Source: an uncultured bacterium
GTDB taxonomy: Bacteria > Cyanobacteriota > Vampirovibrionia > Gastranaerophilales > Gastranaerophilaceae
Reading direction: 5' to 3'
DNA length: 64,000 nucleotides
NCBI GenBank assembly: GCA_949284035.1
Contig: CASDUQ010000045.1
Span: 71,170 to 135,169, forward strand
This document shows positions 31,188 to 50,388 of the stretch, one piece after another (position 1 is the stretch's first letter; each line of letters starts with the position of its first letter). The notes under the pieces were generated by a model. It was not told where the DNA came from and did not search any database. It saw only the letters and a list, made by a program, of their open reading frames with translations. The translations under genes and the position numbers were made by a program.

Positions 31188-31730
31188 ATGAATATTGTTG
31201 AACCAATAAGAAAAAAGAAAGATTTGAAAAAAATTGAAAACATTCTGAAAAAACAAGGGCTTCGAGACTTATTACTTTTTACAATAGGCACCAATTGTGG
31301 ATTAAGAATTTCCGATATCTTAAACCTTAATGTCGGAGATGTAAAAAATAAAGACTATATAAACATTAAAGAGAAAAAAACTGGGAAATACAAAAGATTT
31401 CCAATAAATTCAAAATTAAAACCAATGTTTGCCAAATTCACAAAAGGACGAAATTTGGATGAACCACTGTTTTTATCCGTTTTTAAAAACAGAATGGAAA
31501 GAACTCAATGTTACAGAATAGTAAACGATGCTTGCAAAAAAGCCGGAATTGACTATAAAATAGGAACCCATACATTAAGAAAAACTTTCGGTTATCATCA
31601 TTATCAGAAATTTAAAGATGTTGTTATCTTACAAAAAATATTTAATCATTACTCTCCTCAAGTAACTCTACGATATATCGGAATTGATCAAGACATGATT
31701 GATGATAGCTATAACAATTTTATCCTCTAA
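31188..31730 (+). CDS. Minimal tyrosine recombinase, catalytic set intact
   Basis: R40 (GLRISD), K64, H128xxR131, H154, Y163; catalytic domain only, 180 aa. Confidence 0.95.
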   Translation: MNIVEPIRKKKDLKKIENILKKQGLRDLLLFTIGTNCGLRISDILNLNVGDVKNKDYINIKEKKTGKYKRFPINSKLKPMFAKFTKGRNLDEPLFLSVFKNRMERTQCYRIVNDACKKAGIDYKIGTHTLRKTFGYHHYQKFKDVVILQKIFNHYSPQVTLRYIGIDQDMIDDSYNNFIL

Positions 31731-31754
31731 TTTATATATAAGAGATAACTCAAC

Positions 31755-31798
31755 AAAAAAACAATTCAACATATTTATGCTTGTGTTGAATTGTTTTT
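31755..31798 (+). terminator. Strong hairpin / terminator between the two recombinase genes
   Basis: AAAAACAATTCAACATA-8nt-TGTGTTGAATTGTTTTT. Confidence 0.8.
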
Positions 31799-32014
31799 AT
31801 TAAATCTTTAAATTAAATCTATCACAAAAAAATTCTTATGCAAATTATAGAAAATAAATCTCGAATCTCCTTAATATATTTTAAAATAAACCTGCCCAAA
31901 ATATTGATTTATAAGTATCTTTCCTATTTCTCAACAAACGCATAATTGAGTAGAGATTAATATTGTTTTTATCCAGTGAGGCAAGAATAGTTAAAGAAGG
32001 TATAGATTTAGATA

Positions 32015-32542
32015 ATGACGCTAAGTTCTCCGATAAAAAATATATGCACTATAGAACAAATTAAAGAATTGTATAAAAAGAAAAACATGTTGAGAGATTT
32101 GTTAATGTTTGAACTCGGTATTAATACGGGGATGACATTAAAAAACTTGTTAAAATTAAAAGTTAAAGATGTAAAAAACAAATATTATTTAACTGATGGA
32201 ACAAAAACATTCCCATTAAATGAAAATATAAGAGAATTAATCTCTGAAATAACAAATAATAAAAAATCTTCCGAGTATTTGTTTAAAAGTAAATTTGGCA
32301 GATGCATGGACAGGGGAACTGTCTTTTATGCCTTTAAAGAAATCTGTAAAGAATTAGCATTACCAGATAGTATTTCCGTTGCATCCTGGCGAAAAACATT
32401 TGCATATCATCATTATCAAAAATACAGAGATTTGTCTTATTTACAGTGGTTATTTAATCAAACCAGAGTAACTGTAACTCTTCAATTTATTGAAGAAAAG
32501 GAAAATATGAATTTGAGATATCGGGAAGGGGTAATTCTGTAA
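32015..32542 (+). CDS. Catalytically dead tyrosine-recombinase paralog
   Basis: Aligns with 31188-31730 but has R>T41, a shortened Lys hairpin, H>A123, H>Q149 and Y>F158; TAATG overlap with the next gene. Confidence 0.85.
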   Translation: MTLSSPIKNICTIEQIKELYKKKNMLRDLLMFELGINTGMTLKNLLKLKVKDVKNKYYLTDGTKTFPLNENIRELISEITNNKKSSEYLFKSKFGRCMDRGTVFYAFKEICKELALPDSISVASWRKTFAYHHYQKYRDLSYLQWLFNQTRVTVTLQFIEEKENMNLRYREGVIL

Positions 32543-34053
32543 TGAGTATAAAAAAAATAATTATTCAAGCAGGCGGAAAAGGAACCAGATTAGAGGGGTT
32601 AACAAGAAACAAGCCTAAATGTCTGGTACCTGTAAACAATCTGCCGATTATTTTTTATGCATTTCAAAAATTTCAAGATGCAGAATTTACAATTATCGCA
32701 GACTACAAAACAGATGTTTTAAAAAAGTACTTACAAGCCTTCGGCTCTAAGTACAATTACAAAATAGTAAAAGCCGTTAAAAAAGGGACCGCTTCGGGCA
32801 TAAAAGAAGCCATCTCCGCATACTCCGATGATGAACCGTTTATGATAATGTGGTGCGACTTGATTTTATCTGATAATTTTGAAATTCCGGCAGCTAAAGG
32901 AAACTATATTGGAATTTCAAAAGATTTTGAGTGCCGTTGGTCCTATGTTAATAATCAATTTATAAAAGAACCTTCAAAAGAAAATGGTGTTGCTGGACTA
33001 TTTATTTTTGAAAATAAAAAATTACTGGAAAATGTTGCAGAAGAAGGGGCCCTTGTTGGCTGGCTGCAAAATCAAGGTATAAAATTTGACAGATTGGATT
33101 TATATGGTTCAAAAGAAATCGGCACACTTCTTTCTTATGCTGATAATAGCGCTGATGCGCCTCGATGCAGACCATTTAATTCAATGGAATTTAGTGGTGA
33201 TGTCATTATTAAGCGCGGCATTAATGAACAGGGGAAAAAGATTGCGGTTGATGAAATCGCCTGGTATAAGCATGTTAAAGAACTCGGCTACAATAATATC
33301 CCTGAAATATATGAATATGAACCTTTAACAATGAAACGTGTTAAAGGAAAGAATATTTTTGAGTATGATTGCTTAACCAAAACACAAAAACGTGGAATTT
33401 TGAGAAAACTCATTGAAGCTTTAAAAGAACTACACAATCTTGAACCGGCGCAGCCTGTAAATATCGTTGATGTAGAAGATAATTTTCTAAACAAAACTTT
33501 TGACCGGCTTGCAAAGGTAGAACACCTTGTTCCGTTTGCAGATAAAGAATTTATCAAAATTAACGGGAATTATTACAAAAATGTATTTTTCAACAAAGAA
33601 GAATTAACAGAGGCGGTAAAAACTGTTTACCCGAAAGAATTCAGACTTATTCATGGTGATTGTACATTTTCAAACCTAATGTTTGACACATACAATATGA
33701 AAGCAATTTTAATTGACCCAAGAGGGTATTTCGGCAAAACTAAATTCTACGGCGATGTGGATTATGATTGGGCAAAATTGTATTACTCATTGAAAGGCGA
33801 ATACGACCAGTTTAACCGTAAAAAATTCACTCTTGATATCAGAGAAAAAGATGTTGAAATGGCTATAAAGCCAAATAATTGGGCGGATATGGAAGAGTTT
33901 TTCTTTGACTGCCTGCCGGGGGTTAGCAAATACAAAATAAAACTTTTACATGCAATTATCTGGTTGAGTTTAACAACTTATGCGTGGGAAGATTACGACA
34001 GCATTTGTGGTGCTTTTTATAACGGAATAATAAAACTTAATGAGGTGTTGTAG
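32542..34053 (+). CDS. Nucleotidyltransferase-kinase (APH/choline-kinase fold) fusion
   Basis: IIQAGGKGTRL..KPKCL; LIHGDCTFSN, LIDPRG, GDVDYDWAKL. Confidence 0.85.
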   Translation: MSIKKIIIQAGGKGTRLEGLTRNKPKCLVPVNNLPIIFYAFQKFQDAEFTIIADYKTDVLKKYLQAFGSKYNYKIVKAVKKGTASGIKEAISAYSDDEPFMIMWCDLILSDNFEIPAAKGNYIGISKDFECRWSYVNNQFIKEPSKENGVAGLFIFENKKLLENVAEEGALVGWLQNQGIKFDRLDLYGSKEIGTLLSYADNSADAPRCRPFNSMEFSGDVIIKRGINEQGKKIAVDEIAWYKHVKELGYNNIPEIYEYEPLTMKRVKGKNIFEYDCLTKTQKRGILRKLIEALKELHNLEPAQPVNIVDVEDNFLNKTFDRLAKVEHLVPFADKEFIKINGNYYKNVFFNKEELTEAVKTVYPKEFRLIHGDCTFSNLMFDTYNMKAILIDPRGYFGKTKFYGDVDYDWAKLYYSLKGEYDQFNRKKFTLDIREKDVEMAIKPNNWADMEEFFFDCLPGVSKYKIKLLHAIIWLSLTTYAWEDYDSICGAFYNGIIKLNEVL

Positions 34054-34422
34054 GTGCTTGAATTTTCTTCATTAAATAAAACATGGATTCTGGATGTAGA
34101 TGGAACTCTTGTAAAACATAACGGTTACAAAATTGACGGTTATGACACCCTGCTTGATGGGGTTAAAGACTTCTTTGAACAGTTACCACTTAATGATAAA
34201 GTTATTCTTCTTACAGCAAGAAAAGAAGAATTTTTACCTGCTTTAAAAGACTTTTTAAAAAAAAATAATATCCGCTATGACTATTTGTTAACCGATATGC
34301 CTATGGGTGAAAGGATTTTGGTAAATGACAGAAAACCAAGCGGTTTGGATATGGCCTTTGCAATAAATAAGGATAGAGATAAAAACTTAAACATTGCATA
34401 CAAGATAAATAAGGAGTTATAA
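34054..34422 (+). CDS. Small capless HAD phosphatase
   Basis: ILDVDGTL, LLTAR, LVNDRKP. Confidence 0.8.
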   Translation: MLEFSSLNKTWILDVDGTLVKHNGYKIDGYDTLLDGVKDFFEQLPLNDKVILLTARKEEFLPALKDFLKKNNIRYDYLLTDMPMGERILVNDRKPSGLDMAFAINKDRDKNLNIAYKINKEL

Positions 34423-35412
34423 ATGACAACTTTATTAGAAAATCCAATTTCAATTCAAGAAAATTTAGATAGAAATTGTGCAATTCGTACAATTAACAGT
34501 GAAATAGATACAATAATTAAACTACGCGACAGTCTTGATAATTCATTGACTAAGGCACTTGATATTATGCAGGAAGCAAAAGGCAGAATAATTTTGACCG
34601 GAATGGGGAAATCAGGTCATATCGGCAAAAAAATTGCAGCATCTCTCGCTTCGACCGGGACACCATCATTTTTTGTACATCCTGCCGAAGCGAGTCATGG
34701 CGATTTGGGAATGATAACTGAAGATGATGTTGTCATTGCAATATCCAATAGCGGAGAATCCAGAGAACTTGTCGATATACTTAATTATTGCAAACGATTC
34801 GGTATAAAACTTATTGCTATTACAAAAAATCCCGAAAGTTCTCTGGGAAAAGCCGGTGATATAGTATTAACACTCCCCAACAACGGGGAAGCATGTCCTT
34901 TGGGACTTGCACCCACTAATTCTACAACAGCAACCCTTGTATTGGGAGATATTTTAACAGCAGGGTTAATTCAAAGAAAAGGGTTTACAAAAGCTGACTT
35001 TAATGAAAGACATCCCGGCGGAAAGTTAGGCTCTATATTAAAACGTGTATCTGATTTAATGCATACAGGCTCTGAAATGCCTATATTGGAAGAAAATTCC
35101 AATATGCAGCAGGTATTACTTGAGATGACTTCTAAACGTTTAGGCTGTGTTGGTTTTATAGACAATAACGGGAATTTAACGGGAATGCTGACTGATGGAG
35201 ATTTAAGACGCTGTTTGACTCCAGAAATATTAAACAAAAAGGCAGTTGAACTAATGACAAAAAATCCTAAAACAATTTCAAAGGATGTTATGGCATCAGA
35301 GGCCATAAAAATAATGCATGAAAAGAAAATTACAAATATTTTTATAGTTGAAAACAACATCCCAATCGGAGTAATACATATTCATGATCTTTTAAATAAT
35401 GGAGTCGTTTAG
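34423..35412 (+). CDS. kdsD: KpsF/GutQ/KdsD arabinose-5-phosphate isomerase (SIS + 2 CBS)
   Basis: TGMGKSGHIG, HPAEASHGDLG, LAPTNST, HPGGKLG, TDGDLRR. Confidence 0.9.
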   Translation: MTTLLENPISIQENLDRNCAIRTINSEIDTIIKLRDSLDNSLTKALDIMQEAKGRIILTGMGKSGHIGKKIAASLASTGTPSFFVHPAEASHGDLGMITEDDVVIAISNSGESRELVDILNYCKRFGIKLIAITKNPESSLGKAGDIVLTLPNNGEACPLGLAPTNSTTATLVLGDILTAGLIQRKGFTKADFNERHPGGKLGSILKRVSDLMHTGSEMPILEENSNMQQVLLEMTSKRLGCVGFIDNNGNLTGMLTDGDLRRCLTPEILNKKAVELMTKNPKTISKDVMASEAIKIMHEKKITNIFIVENNIPIGVIHIHDLLNNGVV

Positions 35413-36620
35413 TGAAAATATTTGAGTATAGAAAATCTGAAAATAAAAGTGTTGCCAAATTATTCGGATTTCCGATAATGGAGCAGACTTCTGATTATAT
35501 GACTACTGAAAGACATCAGAGTTTTTTTAAAGGTTTTGTTTCTACAATAAAAATTAATGATAAATACTCTGATTGCTCAAATAAAATAATAAAAATTCTG
35601 GGCAAAACTATAATAAGGCGAGAAGAAAAAAATAACTTTAGGACTTACTATATTTGGAACAAAGAATTCTGTAGATTTTCTTTACTTGATGAGTTTAAAA
35701 AACGTTACTTTAAGTATTTTGACAACCAGCATGATGATATTTATATATTACGTGCAAATAGCGGAGAAACATATCTTATTTTAACTTATATATTAGATAA
35801 ATTGATAGAAAAAAATAATAGTAAAAAGCCCTTATTAGTTGCCACCCTAAAATATCATGTTGATATGATTAAAATGATTTGTCCGGAAATTCCATACGTT
35901 TATATAGGGAAATTTAGATTAAAACTAAAGGACAGTAATTTTAAAATTGATAATCTTCACTTTTTTCTATTATTCAACCACAACCATTTTTTACAGGTAG
36001 AAAATCAAATCAGAAAAGGTGAATTAGGACAAATACACTATTTTTATTCAATTCTAAAATCTCTTGGTATATCAACTCAAGAGATAAATATGAGACATGT
36101 AAAGGTAAATATAGATGATGAAAACAAAATGCTTGATAAGGTCAAAAAAATCGGTCTAAATCTTAAAAAATTTGTTTTTTTAGCACCTGAGGCGCAATCT
36201 TGCAAATTATATGATGAAGATTTCTGGAGCGAATTAATAAATCAATTACAAACAATAGGATATGATGTGTTTGTAAATCTGGTTGATAATGAAATTAAGC
36301 TTAAAGAAACAATAAATTATAAGACTTGTTATCTGACATTTGCAGAAGCTTTTGCACTTGCAAAATGTTCAAAAAAAATTGTATCTTTAAGGAGCGGTTT
36401 TACAGAATTTCTACTTCAAACAAATGTGCCTATTGATGTCATATATACAAGATTTAGAAAGCGTCATTTTTTCGACGATTTGGATACATACCATGTAATA
36501 GCCGGATTTGGCTTAATGCAGCTACCATTTGTAGATAAATCTAAAATTCATGAATTCAATATGTATGAAATATCACCGAAACAATGTCTAAATGAAATTG
36601 TAAATGGATTAAATCAATGA
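35412..36620 (+). CDS. GT9-like putative glycosyltransferase, paralog 1
   Basis: NSGETY, FLAPEAQS, LRSGFTE; N-terminal K(I/L)(F/L)G repeats. Confidence 0.6.
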   Translation: MKIFEYRKSENKSVAKLFGFPIMEQTSDYMTTERHQSFFKGFVSTIKINDKYSDCSNKIIKILGKTIIRREEKNNFRTYYIWNKEFCRFSLLDEFKKRYFKYFDNQHDDIYILRANSGETYLILTYILDKLIEKNNSKKPLLVATLKYHVDMIKMICPEIPYVYIGKFRLKLKDSNFKIDNLHFFLLFNHNHFLQVENQIRKGELGQIHYFYSILKSLGISTQEINMRHVKVNIDDENKMLDKVKKIGLNLKKFVFLAPEAQSCKLYDEDFWSELINQLQTIGYDVFVNLVDNEIKLKETINYKTCYLTFAEAFALAKCSKKIVSLRSGFTEFLLQTNVPIDVIYTRFRKRHFFDDLDTYHVIAGFGLMQLPFVDKSKIHEFNMYEISPKQCLNEIVNGLNQ

Positions 36621-36630
36621 GGTTTCCAAA

Positions 36631-37758
36631 ATGTTATTTCAAATAAAAGAAACAGCCGATTATAAAAAAATATATATATTTTTTGGTCTTATTAGCTTTA
36701 AGATACTATATCATAATCCATCTATTGCTATAAGGATATTTGGAATTAATATACTAACTCTATATTTATTTAATGGAAAATTATTAATACAGTTAAATAT
36801 AAAAATTCCAATACCTTTTATTGATGATGAATTATTTAAAGCAAAATTTTTATATAATTGTGTAAAAGAAAATTACACAAAAGATTTTGATTGTATTTAT
36901 TCATTATGTGGATCTCCTTCAGGGGAAACATATATTATTTTAAATCTTTTAAATATTATTTTAAGAAAAAATTGTTCAAAACAACCTATATTGGTTGTTG
37001 ACAAAATGTTTAAGTATCAACTATGCAAACTATTTCAACCTGAAATCCCTGTAATTTTATGCAAAAATTTATCTTTTTTATATTTTAATAAGAAAAATTT
37101 TCATAAAATAAAAGGATGTAAAGTTTATAATTATTTTCCAACTCAGCATTATATAAAACAGGATATTTTGATAAATACTAAAGATGAACATTATTTTTCA
37201 TATATAGTCTCTAAGTTAGATTTAAATAGAAATTTATCTTTTAATAAACCCAAAATTTCTGATACAGCAAAACAAAATATTTCGTTATTTATAAAAGAAA
37301 ATAATTTAAAAAATTTTGTTATTATAGCTCCGGAAGCTAATACTTGTTCTGAAGGATGCATTAATTGGACTAAAATTTGCAATAAATTGCAAACTCTGGG
37401 ATATAAAGTTGTATTAAACATAACAGATATGAAGAATTATATTCCACATACGATACCGGTTCTATTAACATATGAAGAAATGTTTATACTCACCCAACAG
37501 GCCAGTGCATTCATAGGCTTACGAAGTGGATTGGTTGAAATTTTATCACAGTGTTCTGAAAACACTCCATTTTTCATATTCTATACAGATTTTCCTAAAA
37601 GGGGGGTATTACAAGCCATGAGCGCAGAAAAAGCATTGTCTGGTTTTACACTAAAAAAGCTTCCAAATGTTAATAAAAATAATATTACTGAACTCGTAGC
37701 AGAAGAAAATAGTATTGAAGAACTATTTAAAAAATTAATCAGAGCAAAAAATAATTGA
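36631..37758 (+). CDS. GT9-like putative glycosyltransferase, paralog 2
   Basis: PSGETY, IIAPEANT, LRSGLVE. Confidence 0.6.
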   Translation: MLFQIKETADYKKIYIFFGLISFKILYHNPSIAIRIFGINILTLYLFNGKLLIQLNIKIPIPFIDDELFKAKFLYNCVKENYTKDFDCIYSLCGSPSGETYIILNLLNIILRKNCSKQPILVVDKMFKYQLCKLFQPEIPVILCKNLSFLYFNKKNFHKIKGCKVYNYFPTQHYIKQDILINTKDEHYFSYIVSKLDLNRNLSFNKPKISDTAKQNISLFIKENNLKNFVIIAPEANTCSEGCINWTKICNKLQTLGYKVVLNITDMKNYIPHTIPVLLTYEEMFILTQQASAFIGLRSGLVEILSQCSENTPFFIFYTDFPKRGVLQAMSAEKALSGFTLKKLPNVNKNNITELVAEENSIEELFKKLIRAKNN

Positions 37759-37764
37759 GGCGTA

Positions 37765-38943
37765 ATGAGCGTGTTAAGAAACATATTTTCAAATAAAATT
37801 TATTGCAACAATAACATTTATAAAAAAATCTTTTTCAATGGTTTATTTTCTATTGAATTTAAAATGTTAGACTATTGTGTATTTTACAAAATATTTAATT
37901 TATCTTTTATGGAAAGAAGATTTAAACGAGGCGTTTCTTTATTTAAGTTGTTTAATACCATAAAATTTAAAACTTCTGAAAAAAGCACATTAGAATTCTT
38001 AAAGCCAATCCTAATTGAATATGTAAAAAATCAAACCTTACAAAAAAATTTCTCATTAATACATTTCATAACAAGATTAGGTGAAACATACTTGCAAATG
38101 TACCATTTAGAAGAATATCTAAATAATAATAAAATTAAAAATCCAATTTTTATCTCCCAATTTAGCAACCTTAAATATATATGTAATATGTTTTATCCTA
38201 AAATAAAATTCATAACTATTCCACAAGTTTTCTTTGAAATGTGTTTTTCTACTGAACTAAAAAATTATAAACATGCAGGCTGTTATTATTTTTTACCTAT
38301 TAATAGAACTCATTTGATTAATGTTGAAAAACAATTAAACAATAATAACCAGATACTTTTTTATGAAGAACTAAAAAAATCATTAAAAATTAAAAAATCT
38401 AATTTGATAAATTACCCAATACTCAGTGTGAATGTTAAAACAAAAAGTGATAATATCATTAAACAATTGAGATTAAAAAAGCGTTTTGCATATATTATTC
38501 CAGATGCTCAATCAAACTCTTCTATGTCGTTAAACTTTTGGAATAAACTTTGTAAGACTTTAAACGTTGACTATAATTATGATATTTTTCTAAATACATT
38601 ACCTCAAGGTTTTCAAAATAAGTATAAACACCATCATATATCAATTGAACAAGCAAAATATATTGCATCAAAAGCTGATATTATTATTGGCATAAGATGT
38701 GGCTTGTTGGATATAGTTACGAATAATTCTTCAGATATTTTTGCAATTTATCTCCCTTTTAATAATAGAGCACCTGAATTTCCTTATTTATCCGCAGAAA
38801 AAGTAATGGGGGCCTTTTCACTAAAGCAACTACCCAATATTTGTAATAAGCATCTTTATGAATATAATGCAGAAATTTATTCTGAAAGATACATTTTAAA
38901 TGAAATTTTAAGTCTCATTTCAAAAAAAGAGGTTGAACATTAA
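37765..38943 (+). CDS. GT9-like putative glycosyltransferase, paralog 3
   Basis: RLGETY, IIPDAQS, IRCGLLD. Confidence 0.6.
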   Translation: MSVLRNIFSNKIYCNNNIYKKIFFNGLFSIEFKMLDYCVFYKIFNLSFMERRFKRGVSLFKLFNTIKFKTSEKSTLEFLKPILIEYVKNQTLQKNFSLIHFITRLGETYLQMYHLEEYLNNNKIKNPIFISQFSNLKYICNMFYPKIKFITIPQVFFEMCFSTELKNYKHAGCYYFLPINRTHLINVEKQLNNNNQILFYEELKKSLKIKKSNLINYPILSVNVKTKSDNIIKQLRLKKRFAYIIPDAQSNSSMSLNFWNKLCKTLNVDYNYDIFLNTLPQGFQNKYKHHHISIEQAKYIASKADIIIGIRCGLLDIVTNNSSDIFAIYLPFNNRAPEFPYLSAEKVMGAFSLKQLPNICNKHLYEYNAEIYSERYILNEILSLISKKEVEH

Positions 38944-40034
38944 TGAATATAGTAAAATTTGAAAACTTAAGACAAGAATCTAAAATAACATTTTTGAATG
39001 GCTTATTAAGTTTATATAAATTTAAATCTATTCTTTGGGAATTAAAATTTTTAAAATTGCCTATTCTAGCTTTTTATAAATATCATTATAGCAATAAAAA
39101 ATATAAATCTATTCTTTTATTTTCAAAACCTAAAATAAAAAAACGTATAGAAGATGAGTGCCTATTTCATATAGTAAATCAATCTCCACAAGAGTATGAC
39201 AATATTGTTTTTATCCGTTCTGGATTAGGGGAAACATATTTATTGAACATATATCTTAAACAGATTTTAGAATCTCTTAATATTGAACTCGAAAATACTT
39301 GTTTTATCGGTCTAAGGGATACTTTTAAAGAAATTTTTCACCAATACAATCCAAATGTAATTTATAAAAAAATTGATTTAAATTGGGATTATCTTTGTCT
39401 TTCATGCGATAAACAAAAATACCAATATAATGGGAAAAATATTTATTTTTATATTGAAAAAAATTATATATACAATCTAATGAATAATTACAAAAACAGT
39501 ACAAATAACACGCACTTTGTTTCTAATATATGTAACTTTTTCAATATTAATAAAAATTCTGCTCAAATAGCAAAATATGTCCCATCAATTTCTGAAAGAG
39601 ATAAAGCAATAACATATTTATATAAAAATAATATAAATATTAATAATTTTATTTTTATTTCTAAAAATGCTATATCAATCGAAAATTTTTCTGATGCTTT
39701 TTGGAATGATTTAGAACACTATTTGAAATTAAAAGGGTATGATATAGTTTACAATCAAAATGAATTCTCTATTACGGAAGCAAAGGTTATTGCAAGTTAT
39801 TCTAAAGCAATTATTGCATTACGTTCTGGTTTTCTAGAAACATTGTCAGAATTAGATAAAAAATTTTATATTCTGAATACAGCACTAACAATGAACAATA
39901 TTAATGCTGAGAGAATAAAAAAACTATACTCTTTAAAGTTTTATCCAAACGTAAAACAAGAAAATATTTTTGAATATGACAATGAAACTATGGATGAAAA
40001 TGAAATTTTATTAGATATATTGAAAGGTGTTTAA
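38943..40034 (+). CDS. GT9-like putative glycosyltransferase, paralog 4
   Basis: GLGETY, LRSGFLE. Confidence 0.6.
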   Translation: MNIVKFENLRQESKITFLNGLLSLYKFKSILWELKFLKLPILAFYKYHYSNKKYKSILLFSKPKIKKRIEDECLFHIVNQSPQEYDNIVFIRSGLGETYLLNIYLKQILESLNIELENTCFIGLRDTFKEIFHQYNPNVIYKKIDLNWDYLCLSCDKQKYQYNGKNIYFYIEKNYIYNLMNNYKNSTNNTHFVSNICNFFNINKNSAQIAKYVPSISERDKAITYLYKNNININNFIFISKNAISIENFSDAFWNDLEHYLKLKGYDIVYNQNEFSITEAKVIASYSKAIIALRSGFLETLSELDKKFYILNTALTMNNINAERIKKLYSLKFYPNVKQENIFEYDNETMDENEILLDILKGV

Positions 40035-47581: not shown

Positions 47582-47962
47582 TTATCTGTCCTTAGCCTGC
47601 CTTAAGACATCCTCTTTATTCATCTTGTCCCAGCTTTCAAATTTTATTACCCTGTCATCTATTGTTATATCTGCATTTGGTTTGCCAAAAAATATTTCAT
47701 CATACTGAATTCCATTATCATCAAGCCAATCAAGAGTAATTTTACCGATATTCTTCATCACCTTACCAACATTATGTCCCTGAGTCTGCATATTTCTTGC
47801 GGTATTTATGATAATAGTATGGCCGTCCGCTTTCAAGCTGTCTATAAATTCTTTAGCCCCGGGCATAGGCTTTACATCTGCATAACTTTCTCCGGATTTC
47901 TTAATTGTACATATCGTCCCATCCAAATCAATACATATTCTGAGCTTCTTTTCCGTTATCAT
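47582..47962 (-). CDS. EcbF/BcbF-like capsule HAD phosphatase
   Basis: CIDLDGTIC, INTARNM, FFGKP..IDDR. Confidence 0.85.
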   Translation of the reverse strand: MITEKKLRICIDLDGTICTIKKSGESYADVKPMPGAKEFIDSLKADGHTIIINTARNMQTQGHNVGKVMKNIGKITLDWLDDNGIQYDEIFFGKPNADITIDDRVIKFESWDKMNKEDVLRQAKDR

Positions 47963-49622
47963 ATCTTACATCCTCATCTTCGCTATCCAAAGTTTCATTC
48001 AGCAATTCTACCGCTCTTATATAAAACATTTTTTGTCTAATAAAATTATCCTTATGGAGAGGTATCATTGATAAGAACAACAAACCTTCTATAAATTTGA
48101 TTTCATTTATATTAAAACCGTTATCAACAGCCAATTTATCAAAAATTTTTTCTAAAACAGAATAGTCAGCACTTGTTAGAATTTTATATTTAAATTGATC
48201 AGAGCATTCCTCCAAACGGAACATTCCCTGAACAATAAAGTCATACAGACCTGCAACACTATGCCTTAACTTAGCAATATCATATCTTGGATCCCCATAA
48301 ATAGTAGGTTCGGCATTTAACCTGCCTCTTGGATCAATCAATTTAAAAATATAATTATTTGAATCAAACAATATATTGGAAAAACAATAGTCTCCATGAA
48401 CAACCGTAAAGTACTCACAACTGCTTAATTTTTCACAAACTGCTTTAATTTTAGATTTAAGAAGAGATATACCCTTATATTTCTTCCCGTTTATATACTC
48501 AAAGTCCTTACCCAGAAGTGTTTGCCAGTATGAATTCTGCAATCTTAAATCACTTAATCGTTCTGCAGTTTTTTCATAATAAAGCCATTTTAAAGCCCCG
48601 GTATCAGATTTTACCTTATAATTTTCAAAAATTTTATGCAAAGAAAACAATTTTTCTATTATACAACGCCAATCTTCAATATTGACCTCACCTGACAAAT
48701 AAAGTTCCTGTAATGATTGATACCCGTATAATTCCTGAGTTAGCTTCGCAAATCCATCATTTTTTTCATATTTTATAAGACGAGGAGTACAAATTTTCAA
48801 CTTATCAGGAATATTTTCATACCATAAAGCTTCATCCTCAAGTTTTTGTATTTTTGTACTTGTTTTAATCAAGAGACCCACTTCGGTATCTACAGAAATA
48901 GAATTAAAACATCTTGCATTAAACAACATATTTTTAGCTTTTATTAAACCTGAAGTATGCCCCAAATCATACCAATCGTCTATCAATCTGGTTTTTAATT
49001 TGTAACGTTCCTGATAAGCTTTAAGAGCAGTAGAAATCTCTTTTTTCAGCATTAATCTTGATTTTATGCAGCAATTTAAAAGATACTTAGTATCAGAAAA
49101 CGCATAATAACCTACAAGAGCTTCTTTATTAATTAAATCAAGATTTTTCTGTTTATCATAAAAATCTATAACATAATTATTAATATCTTTTTCAGCCAAG
49201 CACCAATTGTCTGAAGTTGTAATATCCTTTGAAGTAAAAAGAATATCTGTTTCAGAATCTATACTGTTCGGAATTAATGTGTCCCCAAGAATTACTCTTG
49301 TAGGTAAGCTTAAATCTGCTCTTTTTAGAGAATACTTTAATGAACTTAAAATATTTTTTCTGCTGCTGACCAAGACAAGTTCAATATCAAAACTTTCCTG
49401 AAGGATGTTTTTAATATAGCCGATAAGCTTATAATTATTACTGCATACGGCAATTATAAATTTATCCATCCCATATTTTTTTAAATTATTCAACTGCCAC
49501 CAGATTACGGGTTTTCCGCGCAACGGAAGCAGGGCAAGAGATGAGTAAAAGCCTACAGGCATATTTTCGTTTTTAGTTTCTCCTCCAAAAAGCAAAATAT
49601 TATTAAATTTTTGCACATTCAC
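47928..49622 (-). CDS. Nucleotidyltransferase-like + kinase fusion (BcbE/EcbE-like)
   Basis: LLPLRGKPVI, WYDLGH, VHGDYCFSN, LIDPRG, GDPRYDIAKL. Confidence 0.75.
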   Translation of the reverse strand: MNVQKFNNILLFGGETKNENMPVGFYSSLALLPLRGKPVIWWQLNNLKKYGMDKFIIAVCSNNYKLIGYIKNILQESFDIELVLVSSRKNILSSLKYSLKRADLSLPTRVILGDTLIPNSIDSETDILFTSKDITTSDNWCLAEKDINNYVIDFYDKQKNLDLINKEALVGYYAFSDTKYLLNCCIKSRLMLKKEISTALKAYQERYKLKTRLIDDWYDLGHTSGLIKAKNMLFNARCFNSISVDTEVGLLIKTSTKIQKLEDEALWYENIPDKLKICTPRLIKYEKNDGFAKLTQELYGYQSLQELYLSGEVNIEDWRCIIEKLFSLHKIFENYKVKSDTGALKWLYYEKTAERLSDLRLQNSYWQTLLGKDFEYINGKKYKGISLLKSKIKAVCEKLSSCEYFTVVHGDYCFSNILFDSNNYIFKLIDPRGRLNAEPTIYGDPRYDIAKLRHSVAGLYDFIVQGMFRLEECSDQFKYKILTSADYSVLEKIFDKLAVDNGFNINEIKFIEGLLFLSMIPLHKDNFIRQKMFYIRAVELLNETLDSEDEDVRYDNGKEAQNMY

Positions 49623-50388
49623 CCCCTATATATTTTTTTAACTGTTCAGGGGTACCTACACAATCAAAATGTAATATATCAAAAATTCCAATTTTATCTG
49701 TCATTTTTCTGAGATGATTGTATACAGTCGACATATAAAACTCACCTTTTTGCAAATCATTACAAATAACAAGATCAATTACGGCATTTTTAAACAGTTC
49801 TACATTATTAAAATAGTACATACCGCAAATTGCATGATTGGAAATAACTTCTTTTTCCCTTGTTTCAAGTAAAAATCCGTTTGAATCAATATTTGCATAA
49901 GAAAAACAAGGATTATCCGAATATATAGTCAACAAAGCCGCTGCAAGTTTTCTTGACCTTACATCTAAAATAAAGTTAGAGACATCGTTACAAGCAAAAA
50001 TATTATCAGAATCCGCAAATATAATATCATATTCAGGCCTAATTTTCTGATGAGCAGCCAGAGCAGTAATTGCAGCCCCCATTGTAAGTTTCGGTACAGT
50101 TACAAAATCTAAGGTATACTTATTTTTCAATTCTTCAAGCTGAAGCTTTTGTTCTATAAGAAATTTTTCCTGAAGAACTAAAATTATCTTTGCATTAATA
50201 GTTTTGAAGCTATCAAGAACATGTTCAATCATCATTTTTCCGTTAAATTCAATAAACGGCTTAGGCACATCATACCCCTCGACTGCAAACCTGCTCCCGG
50301 CACCTGCCATAGGAATAACTATATTTATAGGTTCTTTTAACAGTTGATTATCATACAAATTATGATTATTAAATTTCGAAATAGACAT
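49603..50388 (-). CDS. Sugar nucleotidyltransferase-like protein (BcbG/EcbG-like)
   Basis: IPMAGAGSRF..YDVPKPFI, EKEVISNHAICG.YYF, GEFY, GTPEQL. Confidence 0.8.
   Translation of the reverse strand: MSISKFNNHNLYDNQLLKEPINIVIPMAGAGSRFAVEGYDVPKPFIEFNGKMMIEHVLDSFKTINAKIILVLQEKFLIEQKLQLEELKNKYTLDFVTVPKLTMGAAITALAAHQKIRPEYDIIFADSDNIFACNDVSNFILDVRSRKLAAALLTIYSDNPCFSYANIDSNGFLLETREKEVISNHAICGMYYFNNVELFKNAVIDLVICNDLQKGEFYMSTVYNHLRKMTDKIGIFDILHFDCVGTPEQLKKYIGGECAKI

What the first reader, a model, noticed from the sequence alone, without database searches (positions are those of the whole stretch)
32542..35412. Isomerase + kinase/nucleotidyltransferase + phosphatase: possible heptose-pathway analogue for a pentose
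The three coupled genes mirror the logic of ADP/GDP-heptose synthesis (SIS isomerase GmhA, kinase, HAD GmhB, nucleotidyltransferase). Here the isomerase is arabinose-5-phosphate isomerase and the kinase is APH-fold. Four GT9-like transferases follow, and GT9 enzymes normally use ADP-heptose. Hypothesis: synthesis and transfer of an NDP-D-arabinose or related pentose. Alternative: KdsD simply feeds the ulosonate module downstream.
Basis: inference. Interest (0 to 1): 0.55.

Follow-up and report, generated by a model that had tools for sequence, protein, structure and literature searches.

The report
Bacterial nucleotide-D-arabinofuranose synthesis cassette
Three overlapping genes in a gut Melainabacteria surface-sugar island look like the bacterial version of a pathway shown by experiment only in phages, which turns ribulose-5-phosphate into nucleotide-activated D-arabinofuranose; here the sugar probably goes to a cell-surface glycan through heptosyltransferase-like enzymes.

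Summary
32542-35412 carries three translationally coupled genes: a 503-aa nucleotidyltransferase/APH-kinase fusion (NTK), a 122-aa capless HAD phosphatase (mHAD), and a 329-aa KpsF/GutQ-type arabinose-5-phosphate isomerase. Four paralogous transferases with a GT9-like fold follow.

The chemistry is already published for phages: HY126 AfhE/AfhF plus an isomerase make UDP-D-arabinofuranose for DNA arabinosylation (PMC13326640; PDB 9iqw).

- NTK is a full-length homologue of the phage enzymes, at 28-35% identity with all catalytic motifs kept.
- NTK and mHAD are adjacent in about 57 of 61 related loci, usually followed by a GT9-like gene.
- A KpsF gene sits beside the pair in 16 loci.
- Natural NTK+HAD, NTK+SIS and GT9-like+NTK fusions exist.
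- KpsF shows no association with the downstream ulosonate genes (odds ratio 0.84).
- The genome has a separate KdsD-KdsC-KdsA set for Kdo.

The weak point is mHAD, which belongs to a different mini-HAD lineage from AfhF. Substrate, nucleotide and acceptor are all inferred.

It is new only as a bacterial glycan use. This scan has already reached the same reading for this cassette in several other genomes.

The parts
32542..34053 (+). NTK: bifunctional enzyme. The N-terminal half is a sugar-1-phosphate nucleotidyltransferase and the C-terminal half is an APH-fold kinase. Predicted to act as arabinose-5-P 1-kinase and NDP-D-arabinofuranose pyrophosphorylase (AfhE-like).
   Evidence: Pfam NTP_transferase and APH above gathering. 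Full-length homology to phage proteins: Maestro 28% identity, E 1e-33; S-SRM01 35%, E 1e-93; RB69 kinase half 30%. The GxGxR, PK, D106, K224, E238, HGDxxxSN and DPRG motifs are conserved across the family, phages included.
34054..34422 (+). mHAD: 122-aa capless HAD phosphatase. Predicted to remove the 5-phosphate from arabinofuranose-1,5-bisphosphate.
   Evidence: D14, D16, T54 and D92 are invariant in an alignment with phage mini-HADs. It is 54% identical to the cyanophage S-SRM01 partner. It is fused to NTK in six representatives. Fold matches are Pnkp1, 1xpj and AfhF 9iqw, with TM 0.58 at E 6.5e-3. Weak point: a bacterial-only profile does not reach 9iqw.
34423..35412 (+). KpsF/GutQ-family arabinose-5-phosphate isomerase (SIS plus 2 CBS). 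It is a second, island-borne copy.
   Evidence: TIGR00393 318.7 bits against 203.7. The KdsD equivalog scores 352.9, below its 505 cut-off. PDB 2xhz E 4e-51. It is 48% identical to the housekeeping KdsD at G000:C13, which is followed by KdsC.
35412..36620 (+). GTa: GT-B transferase with a GT9-like fold and an extra N-terminal beta domain (residues 1-90). It is the best candidate for the committed transferase of the cassette.
   Evidence: AlphaFold pLDDT 93. Foldseek top hits are TibC, 3tov, WaaF and WaaC, E 1e-8. A homologue follows mHAD or KpsF in 40 or more loci. One natural GT9-like+NTK fusion exists, P0202.
36631..37758 (+). GTb: paralogue of GTa.
   Evidence: BLASTP against GTa gives 32% identity, E 8e-29. 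It matches the family profile.
37765..38943 (+). GTc: paralogue of GTa.
   Evidence: BLASTP against GTa gives 28% identity, E 1e-19.
38943..40034 (+). GTd: paralogue of GTa.
   Evidence: BLASTP against GTa gives E 2e-9 and against GTc 1e-15.
32015..32542 (+). Tyrosine-recombinase-like gene whose stop codon overlaps the NTK start. It is associated with the operon, not part of the pathway.
   Evidence: Pfam Phage_integrase. The TAATG overlap is shown. Homologues of this gene or its neighbour lie upstream of NTK in 12 related loci.

Best explanation
The three genes form a cassette that makes a nucleotide-activated D-arabinofuranose from the pentose-phosphate pool.

1. KpsF converts ribulose-5-P to arabinose-5-P.
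2. The C-terminal APH-fold kinase of NTK phosphorylates the anomeric carbon, giving arabinofuranose-1,5-bisphosphate.
3. mHAD removes the 5-phosphate.
4. The N-terminal nucleotidyltransferase of NTK joins arabinofuranose-1-P to an NTP (UTP by analogy), giving NDP-D-Araf.

The four GT9-like GT-B paralogues encoded next, GTa above all, then probably use this donor to build or decorate a surface glycan. The neighbouring genes suggest LPS core or another envelope glycan.

What is shown: the domain content, the homology, the conserved motifs, the synteny and the fusions. What is inferred: the substrate, the order of the steps, the nucleotide, and the role and acceptor of the transferases.
For: Published precedent:
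- AfhF is a Mg-dependent phosphatase acting on arabinose-1,5-bisphosphate, and an isomerase is encoded beside them (PMC13326640).
- PDB 9iqw is titled 'phage HY126 encoded D-arabinose 1,5-diphosphate phosphatase AfhF'. It is 127/128 identical to RB69 gp51.

Homology:
- Window NTK matches 365 phage records, 350 of them over at least 80% of its length.
- All nucleotidyltransferase and kinase catalytic motifs are kept, together with family-specific residues.
- In a tree, the T-even and cyanophage enzymes fall inside the NTK family, not with the window's paralogue NTK2.
- Phages Maestro and RB69 have the order SIS, NTK, mini-HAD. Cyanophage S-SRM01 has the same trio inside a glycan cluster.

Recurrence:
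- NTK and mHAD are adjacent in about 57 of 61 loci.
- The next gene is GT9-like in 32 loci and KpsF in 11. KpsF is present in 16 loci overall.
- In distant relatives (31-49% identity) a SIS gene is fused or adjacent.

Fusions: NTK+HAD in six representatives, NTK+SIS in P0125 on 9 contigs, and GT9-like+NTK in P0202.

The genome makes Kdo with a separate KdsD-KdsC pair and a KdsA gene.
Against: - No enzyme of the bacterial clade has been assayed, and identity to the phage enzymes is only 28-35%.
- mHAD is not in the AfhF/EcbF-BcbF lineage. It gives no TIGR01689 hit and a bacterial-only profile does not reach 9iqw. The fold match is weak and rests on a model of pLDDT 75.
- Most related loci (about 70%) carry no isomerase of their own. 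There the link to arabinose-5-P depends on a housekeeping KdsD.
- The GT9-like family has no characterised member. Its Pfam GT9 match is below threshold.
- The GT9-like+NTK fusion is a singleton.
Confidence: 0.68

Rival explanations
1. KpsF is there to feed the downstream CMP-ulosonate (Kdo-like) module. NTK and mHAD activate some other sugar, such as ribose, a hexose or a heptose, and have nothing to do with arabinose-5-P.
For: In this window a KdsB-like gene, an HMGL-type aldolase and a HAD follow in the same operon. About 70% of related loci have NTK and mHAD without an adjacent KpsF. GT9 enzymes classically use ADP-heptose.
Against: - KpsF and the ulosonate genes are not associated across 41 loci: 2/13 against 5/28, odds ratio 0.84, p = 1.
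- Where KpsF is present it usually abuts mHAD or NTK, not KdsB.
- The SIS partner is an arabinose-5-P-isomerase type, never a GmhA type, in phages, in fusions and in distant relatives.
- In locus L101 a canonical GmhA-HldA-HldC-HldD set lies beside the NTK+SIS fusion. The cassette is therefore not a heptose pathway in another guise.
Confidence: 0.15
2. NTK is a LicC/LicA-type or MurU/AmgK-type salvage enzyme. It would activate phosphocholine, MurNAc or a similar free compound, and mHAD would be an unrelated phosphatase.
For: LicC (1jyk) and MurU (4y7t, NF045761) are among the closest nucleotidyltransferase matches. LicA and AmgK are APH-fold kinases (established knowledge).
Against: The matches are far below the family cut-offs: MurU scores 39.7 bits against 250. 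A salvage kinase plus nucleotidyltransferase needs no phosphatase, yet mHAD is adjacent in about 93% of loci and fused in six representatives. The recurrent partner is an arabinose-5-P isomerase.
Confidence: 0.05
3. The chemistry is the same (NDP-D-Araf), but the product is not for a surface glycan. It would modify DNA, as in phages, or a small molecule.
For: The only proven use of this pathway is the arabinosylation of 5-hydroxycytosine in phage DNA.
Against: None of the island ORFs scanned is a thymidylate-synthase-like 5-hydroxy-dCMP synthase or a phage structural or replication gene. The neighbours are GT9-like, WavE, MptE-like and KdsB-like envelope-glycan genes. Related loci carry ABC-transporter, GT2 and GtrA genes.
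Confidence: 0.04

Closest known systems
Phage UDP-D-arabinofuranose pathway for arabinosyl-5-hydroxycytosine DNA: HY126 AfhE and AfhF plus an arabinose-5-P isomerase; RB69 gp55, gp53/52, gp51; DLP3 gp83-81; Maestro
   Same: The same three activities in the same domain architecture: an N-terminal nucleotidyltransferase and C-terminal kinase in one protein, a mini-HAD of about 125 aa directly downstream, and an arabinose-5-P-isomerase-type SIS protein. NTK is homologous over its full length with its catalytic motifs conserved.
   Different: - The context is a bacterial envelope-glycan operon, not a DNA-modification module.
- The isomerase keeps its CBS domains and lies 3' of the pair rather than 5'.
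- mHAD belongs to a different mini-HAD lineage from AfhF.
- The transferases are GT9-like, not the phage DNA arabinosyltransferases.
- Identity is only 28-35%.
Cyanophage S-SRM01 SIS / 'NDP-sugar synthase' / '3' phosphatase' trio
   Same: This is the closest phage relative: NTK 35%, mHAD 54% and SIS 32% identical. It sits among glycosyltransferase and GDP-fucose genes, so it too is a glycan context.
   Different: It is uncharacterised. Its isomerase is SIS-only, its partner transferases are fucosyltransferase-like or GT2, and it is viral.
Nucleotide-heptose pathways (GmhA; HldE or HddA+HddC; GmhB) with GT9 heptosyltransferases
   Same: The same logic: isomerase, anomeric kinase, removal of the distal phosphate by a capless HAD, then a nucleotidyltransferase. 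A GT9-like transferase fold follows.
   Different: Every enzyme is non-orthologous. The isomerase is KpsF-type, not GmhA. The kinase is APH-fold, not PfkB or GHMP. The HAD is not GmhB. No GmhA was found in this genome. In L101 a canonical ADP-heptose set lies beside the cassette.
Kdo pathway KdsD-KdsA-KdsC-KdsB and the capsule duplicate KpsF
   Same: The isomerase belongs to the same family and presumably catalyses the same reaction.
   Different: The genome has its own KdsD-KdsC pair and a KdsA gene elsewhere. The window copy is translationally coupled to NTK and mHAD.
Other routes to D-arabinose donors: decaprenyl-phospho-arabinose in Actinobacteria, and GDP-D-arabinopyranose in trypanosomatids (PMC11301363)
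   Same: The end product is an activated D-arabinose for glycoconjugates.
   Different: The first is a lipid-linked donor made from PRPP. The second is a pyranose donor made from free arabinose by a different kinase/pyrophosphorylase. This comparison rests on established knowledge and was not tested here.

Membership tests
Phage-type NDP-D-arabinofuranose pathway (isomerase + AfhE + AfhF) | An arabinose-5-P isomerase of the KpsF/GutQ SIS type is encoded with the module | tested here: met
   TIGR00393 318.7 bits against a 203.7 cut-off. PDB 2xhz E 4e-51. The gene is translationally coupled to mHAD.
Phage-type NDP-D-arabinofuranose pathway (isomerase + AfhE + AfhF) | One protein with an N-terminal sugar-1-P nucleotidyltransferase and a C-terminal kinase, homologous to AfhE-type enzymes, with catalytic motifs intact | tested here: met
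   97% coverage at 28% identity to Maestro and the Klebsiella T-even phages, and 35% identity to S-SRM01. The motifs are conserved. The sequence of HY126 AfhE itself was not available. RB69 gp52/53 stands in for it, because its neighbour gp51 is 127/128 identical to AfhF.
Phage-type NDP-D-arabinofuranose pathway (isomerase + AfhE + AfhF) | An AfhF-type capless HAD phosphatase lies directly downstream of the fusion enzyme | tested here: inconclusive
   The position, size and HAD motifs match. The fold search lists 9iqw with the highest TM (0.58), but at E 6.5e-3 and from a model of pLDDT 75. A bacterial-only profile misses 9iqw. mHAD gives no TIGR01689 hit, whereas RB69 gp51 and the window's other mini-HAD do.
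Phage-type NDP-D-arabinofuranose pathway (isomerase + AfhE + AfhF) | Enzymatic conversion of arabinose-5-P to UDP-D-Araf | not testable with these tools
   This needs a biochemical assay.
Phage-type NDP-D-arabinofuranose pathway (isomerase + AfhE + AfhF) | The product is used for arabinosylation of 5-hydroxycytosine in DNA (a thymidylate-synthase-like hydroxylase and DNA arabinosyltransferases are encoded nearby) | tested here: not met
   No such domain occurs among the 20 island ORFs scanned. The neighbours are envelope-glycan genes.
GT9 heptosyltransferases | Pfam PF01075 at or above the gathering score | tested here: not met
   GTa scores 15.9 bits against 22. Only 3 of 36 family members give even a weak hit.
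GT9 heptosyltransferases | A GT-B fold closest to solved GT9 structures | tested here: met
   The Foldseek top ten are TibC, 3tov and WaaF (WaaC follows at ranks 31-37), at E 1e-8 to 2e-7 and TM 0.37-0.56.
GT9 heptosyltransferases | An ADP-heptose supply in the genome | tested here: inconclusive
   No GmhA was found above 25 bits. An RfaE-domain-I-like kinase is present but below its cut-off, at 294.6 against 345.
Nucleotide-heptose biosynthesis (GmhA/HldE/GmhB) | A GmhA-type isomerase, a PfkB or GHMP kinase, and a GmhB phosphatase | tested here: not met
   The isomerase scores 22.7 bits on the GmhA model against a cut-off of 265. The kinase is APH-fold. GmhB (2gmw) ranks only 48th for the mHAD model.
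Housekeeping KdsD of the Kdo pathway | It reaches the equivalog score and is the genome's only A5P isomerase copy, linked to kdsC | tested here: not met
   It scores 352.9 bits against 505. A second copy lies at G000:C13 and is followed by KdsC.

The most novel reading that the evidence does not exclude
The GT9-like paralogues are a new, unannotated family of NDP-D-arabinofuranose-dependent arabinofuranosyltransferases. Many gut bacteria would use them to put D-Araf, perhaps as short oligomers from the tandem paralogues, on LPS or another envelope glycan, through a nucleotide-sugar route unrelated to the actinobacterial lipid-linked donor. The upstream recombinases may make this phase-variable. 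The phage DNA-arabinosylation pathway would then have been recruited from such glycan islands.
Probability: 0.4. Interest if true: 0.7.

Novelty: new variant of a known kind. Interest (0 to 1): 0.5.

Why it matters
D-arabinofuranose in bacterial glycans is classically explained by the lipid-linked decaprenyl-phospho-arabinose route of Actinobacteria. A soluble nucleotide-sugar route was shown only in 2025-26, and only in phages, for DNA modification.

If this cassette works as proposed, that route is widespread in cellular genomes as a surface-glycan module:
- 3767 homologues were scored at E <= 0.001, among a capped set of candidates.
- 38 of 201 sampled genomes of this order carry it.
- Copies in Lentisphaerae, Elusimicrobia and Campylobacter and Helicobacter MAGs are 75-82% identical, and those in cultured Helicobacter isolates 61-62%.

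It would name a large unannotated transferase family. It would point to D-Araf as a variable, horizontally traded surface antigen of gut commensals. It would also suggest where the phage pathway came from.

Tried and rejected
- PDB sequence search with NTK found only nucleotidyltransferase hits, nothing for the kinase half and no AfhE structure.
- Profiles of the GT9-like family (A1) and of the alternative DxD family (A2) found nothing in PDB by sequence. Only a fold search placed GTa.
- A bacterial-only mHAD profile did not reach AfhF 9iqw. I therefore do not claim orthology of the phosphatase.
- I looked for an isomerase serving the cassette in a Lachnospiraceae MAG (G001) that has no KdsA. 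None was found near it, but the NTK contig is cut at its 5' end, so the result is inconclusive.
- Short metagenome contigs for distant relatives gave little context.
- The heptose reading, the LicC/LicA or MurU/AmgK reading and the 'feeds the ulosonate module' reading were each considered and rejected as the main explanation. Reasons are given under the rival explanations.
- Literature searches found no description of the bacterial cassette. The one exception is a remark in PMC6024577 that RB69 ORF53_52c has diverged prokaryotic homologues, some fused to a SIS domain.
- The original HY126 paper (He et al.) and Mahler et al. 2025 are not in the library. I cite them only through PMC13326640.
Full report
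**What is there**

The window comes from a gut Melainabacterium of the order Gastranaerophilales (related loci). Its genome is 2.2 Mb and 99.9% complete. Coordinates 32542-35412 hold three genes on the + strand.

- NTK, 503 aa. It has an N-terminal NTP_transferase domain and a C-terminal APH domain, both above Pfam gathering.
- mHAD, 122 aa, with a GTG start. It has no Pfam hit but carries the HAD signatures DVDGT, TAR and ND-K.
- A KpsF/GutQ-family isomerase, 329 aa, with SIS plus two CBS domains. TIGR00393 scores 318.7 bits against a 203.7 cut-off. The KdsD equivalog model is not reached, at 352.9 against 505.

The stops and starts abut or overlap, and each start has a Shine-Dalgarno sequence upstream. 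The upstream recombinase-like gene and the downstream GTa gene overlap the block in the same way.

GTa to GTd (35412-40034) are paralogues. The AlphaFold model of GTa (pLDDT 93) matches GT9 structures first: TibC, the Veillonella GT9 3tov and WaaF, with WaaC lower at ranks 31-37. E-values are about 1e-8 and TM-scores 0.37-0.56. The sequence match to Pfam GT9 is below threshold.

**The key comparison**

A literature search found PMC13326640 (NAR 2026). It describes how T4-like phages with arabosylated 5-hydroxycytosine DNA make the sugar donor.

1. An arabinose-5-P isomerase supplies arabinofuranose-5-P.
2. HY126 AfhE is bifunctional. Its C-terminal kinase makes arabinose-1,5-bisphosphate.
3. 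AfhF, a Mg-dependent HAD phosphatase, removes one phosphate.
4. The N-terminal domain of AfhE makes UDP-D-arabinose.

PDB 9iqw bears the title 'phage HY126 encoded D-arabinose 1,5-diphosphate phosphatase AfhF'. It is 127/128 identical to RB69 gp51.

**Homology to the phage enzymes**

- Window NTK matches 365 phage records, 350 of them over at least 80% of its length.
- It is 28% identical to the enzyme of Acinetobacter phage Maestro, a phage reported to carry arabinosylated 5hoC.
- It is 30% identical to the kinase half of RB69 gp52.
- It is 35% identical to an 'NDP-sugar synthase' of cyanophage S-SRM01.

In Maestro and RB69 the gene order is SIS isomerase, fusion enzyme, mini-HAD. S-SRM01 has the same trio inside a fucose and glycosyltransferase cluster. 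Its mini-HAD is 54% and its SIS 32% identical to the window proteins.

An alignment of 92 family members, phages included, keeps the nucleotidyltransferase GxGxR and PK motifs and D106. It also keeps the kinase residues K224 and E238 and the HGDxxxSN and DPRG motifs, together with a set of family-specific polar residues. In a FastTree tree rooted on the window's own paralogue NTK2, the T-even enzyme, the cyanophage enzyme, a SIS-fused form and window NTK all lie in the ingroup. The T-even branch is long and the backbone is poorly resolved.

**Is the unit recurrent?**

68 related loci came from one genome per species. I labelled their ORFs with the window proteins and with an iterated profile of the GT9-like family.

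- NTK is directly followed by mHAD in about 57 of 61 loci that have room for it.
- The gene after mHAD is GT9-like in 32 loci and KpsF in 11. In 9 it carries no label. Eight of those nine belong to a different family with a DADD motif, and the ninth is a partial ORF cut by a contig end.
- KpsF is present in 16 loci, usually touching the pair.

More distant relatives (31-49% identity) again have mHAD downstream. They often have a SIS protein adjacent or fused. One contig carries two NTK-SIS-miniHAD trios.

Fusion proteins tie the parts together.
- NTK+mHAD occurs in six representatives, five of them forming one clade.
- NTK+SIS occurs in P0125, seen on nine contigs.
- GT9-like+NTK occurs in P0202. 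This is a singleton, so it is weak evidence.

The cassette is patchy. It is in 38 of 201 sampled genomes of the order and in 9 of 31 of the window's own genus. It is 75-82% identical in Lentisphaerae, Elusimicrobia, and Campylobacter and Helicobacter MAGs. That pattern fits a horizontally traded surface-antigen module.

- *KpsF only feeds the ulosonate genes downstream.* Among 41 loci with at least 6 kb downstream, KpsF and ulosonate genes co-occur no more than expected: 2/13 against 5/28, odds ratio 0.84. The loci are related, so this is descriptive rather than a formal test. The genome has a second KdsD, 48% identical, directly followed by KdsC. It also has a KdsA-sized gene elsewhere. In this window KpsF may still serve both modules.
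- *The cassette is a heptose pathway.* None of the three enzymes is of the heptose type. In locus L101 a canonical GmhA-HldA-HldC-HldD set lies immediately upstream of the NTK+SIS fusion and its mini-HAD.
- *It is a LicC/LicA or MurU/AmgK salvage system.* Such a system needs no phosphatase, and the matches are far below the family cut-offs.

**Weak points**

mHAD is not demonstrably an AfhF orthologue. There are two mini-HAD lineages. T-even AfhF and the window's other small HAD (47582-47962, minus strand) both hit TIGR01689 EcbF-BcbF below its cut-off. mHAD and the cyanophage protein do not. A bacterial-only mHAD profile does not reach 9iqw. The mHAD model (pLDDT 75) ranks Pnkp1, 1xpj and 9iqw together at weak E-values, although 9iqw has the best TM-score at 0.58.

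No bacterial member has been assayed. The nucleotide, the order of the steps, the donor use by the GT9-like enzymes and the acceptor are all inferences.

**Novelty**

The chemistry is known, but only from phages and only since 2025-26. PMC6024577 had noted diverged prokaryotic homologues in passing. I found no paper describing the bacterial cassette or its pairing with GT9-like transferases.

I reached this reading from the literature before consulting the scan's index. The index then showed that follow-up agents have already given the same reading for this cassette in several other genomes, including Clostridia, an actinobacterium and the same or a similar cyanophage. Those notes are unchecked AI notes and I do not count them as evidence.

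Three features are particular to this window:
- a CBS-bearing isomerase placed 3' of the pair;
- four tandem GT9-like paralogues;
- a second, divergent kinase/mini-HAD module in the same island.

Noticed in passing
window 47582-50388 (minus strand): A second, divergent module of the same superfamily lies here: a separate 261-aa nucleotidyltransferase (49603-50388), NTK2 (47928-49622, 564 aa) and a 126-aa mini-HAD (47582-47962). The GxGxR and PK motifs of NTK2's nucleotidyltransferase half are lost, while its kinase motifs and the family-specific residues are kept. This mini-HAD is closer to T-even AfhF than mHAD is (E 1e-9) and hits TIGR01689 EcbF-BcbF at 68.5 bits, below the cut-off. The Pasteurella multocida type B capsule is reported to contain arabinose. 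The module may therefore also handle arabinose, but I did not check its homology to BcbE/F/G.
   Followed up: partly
window 31188-32542, and related loci L001, L004-L006, L010, L011, L013, L014, L025, L026, L033, L036: Small tyrosine-recombinase-like genes precede NTK in 12 related loci as well as in the window. The stop codon of the window's second copy overlaps the NTK start. This suggests recombinase-controlled, possibly phase-variable, expression of the glycan operon.
   Followed up: partly
L002:11934-13001, L010:3646-4653, L012, L022, L038, L042, L051, L058 (alignment A2): In eight loci the gene after mHAD is not GT9-like. It is a 335-357-aa protein family with an invariant DADD motif, and a PDB profile search (A2) found no match. 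It may be an alternative GT-A-type transferase for the same donor.
   Followed up: partly
G000:C45:66124-67083 (about 4 kb upstream of the window start): An RfaE-domain-I-like heptose-7-P kinase homologue scores 294.6 bits, below the 345 cut-off. No GmhA was found in this 99.9%-complete genome, although two proper GT9 genes exist at C3 and C49. The heptose supply of this organism is unclear.
   Followed up: no
GTa, window 35412-35690 (residues 1-90): The AlphaFold model shows an all-beta domain of nine strands ahead of the GT-B Rossmann domains. I did not examine what it resembles or binds.
   Followed up: no
L101:2088-8497: A metagenomic locus joins Wzm/Wzt-like ABC-transporter genes, a complete ADP-heptose gene set (GmhA, HldA, HldC, HldD), the NTK+SIS fusion, a mini-HAD, a GT2 and a GtrA gene. 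It looks like a glycan containing both heptose and the cassette's sugar.
   Followed up: partly
L001 and L052 (a second NTK-labelled ORF downstream); contig of P0202: Some loci carry two or three NTK-family genes. This hints at paralogues with different nucleotide or sugar specificity within one glycan locus.
   Followed up: no
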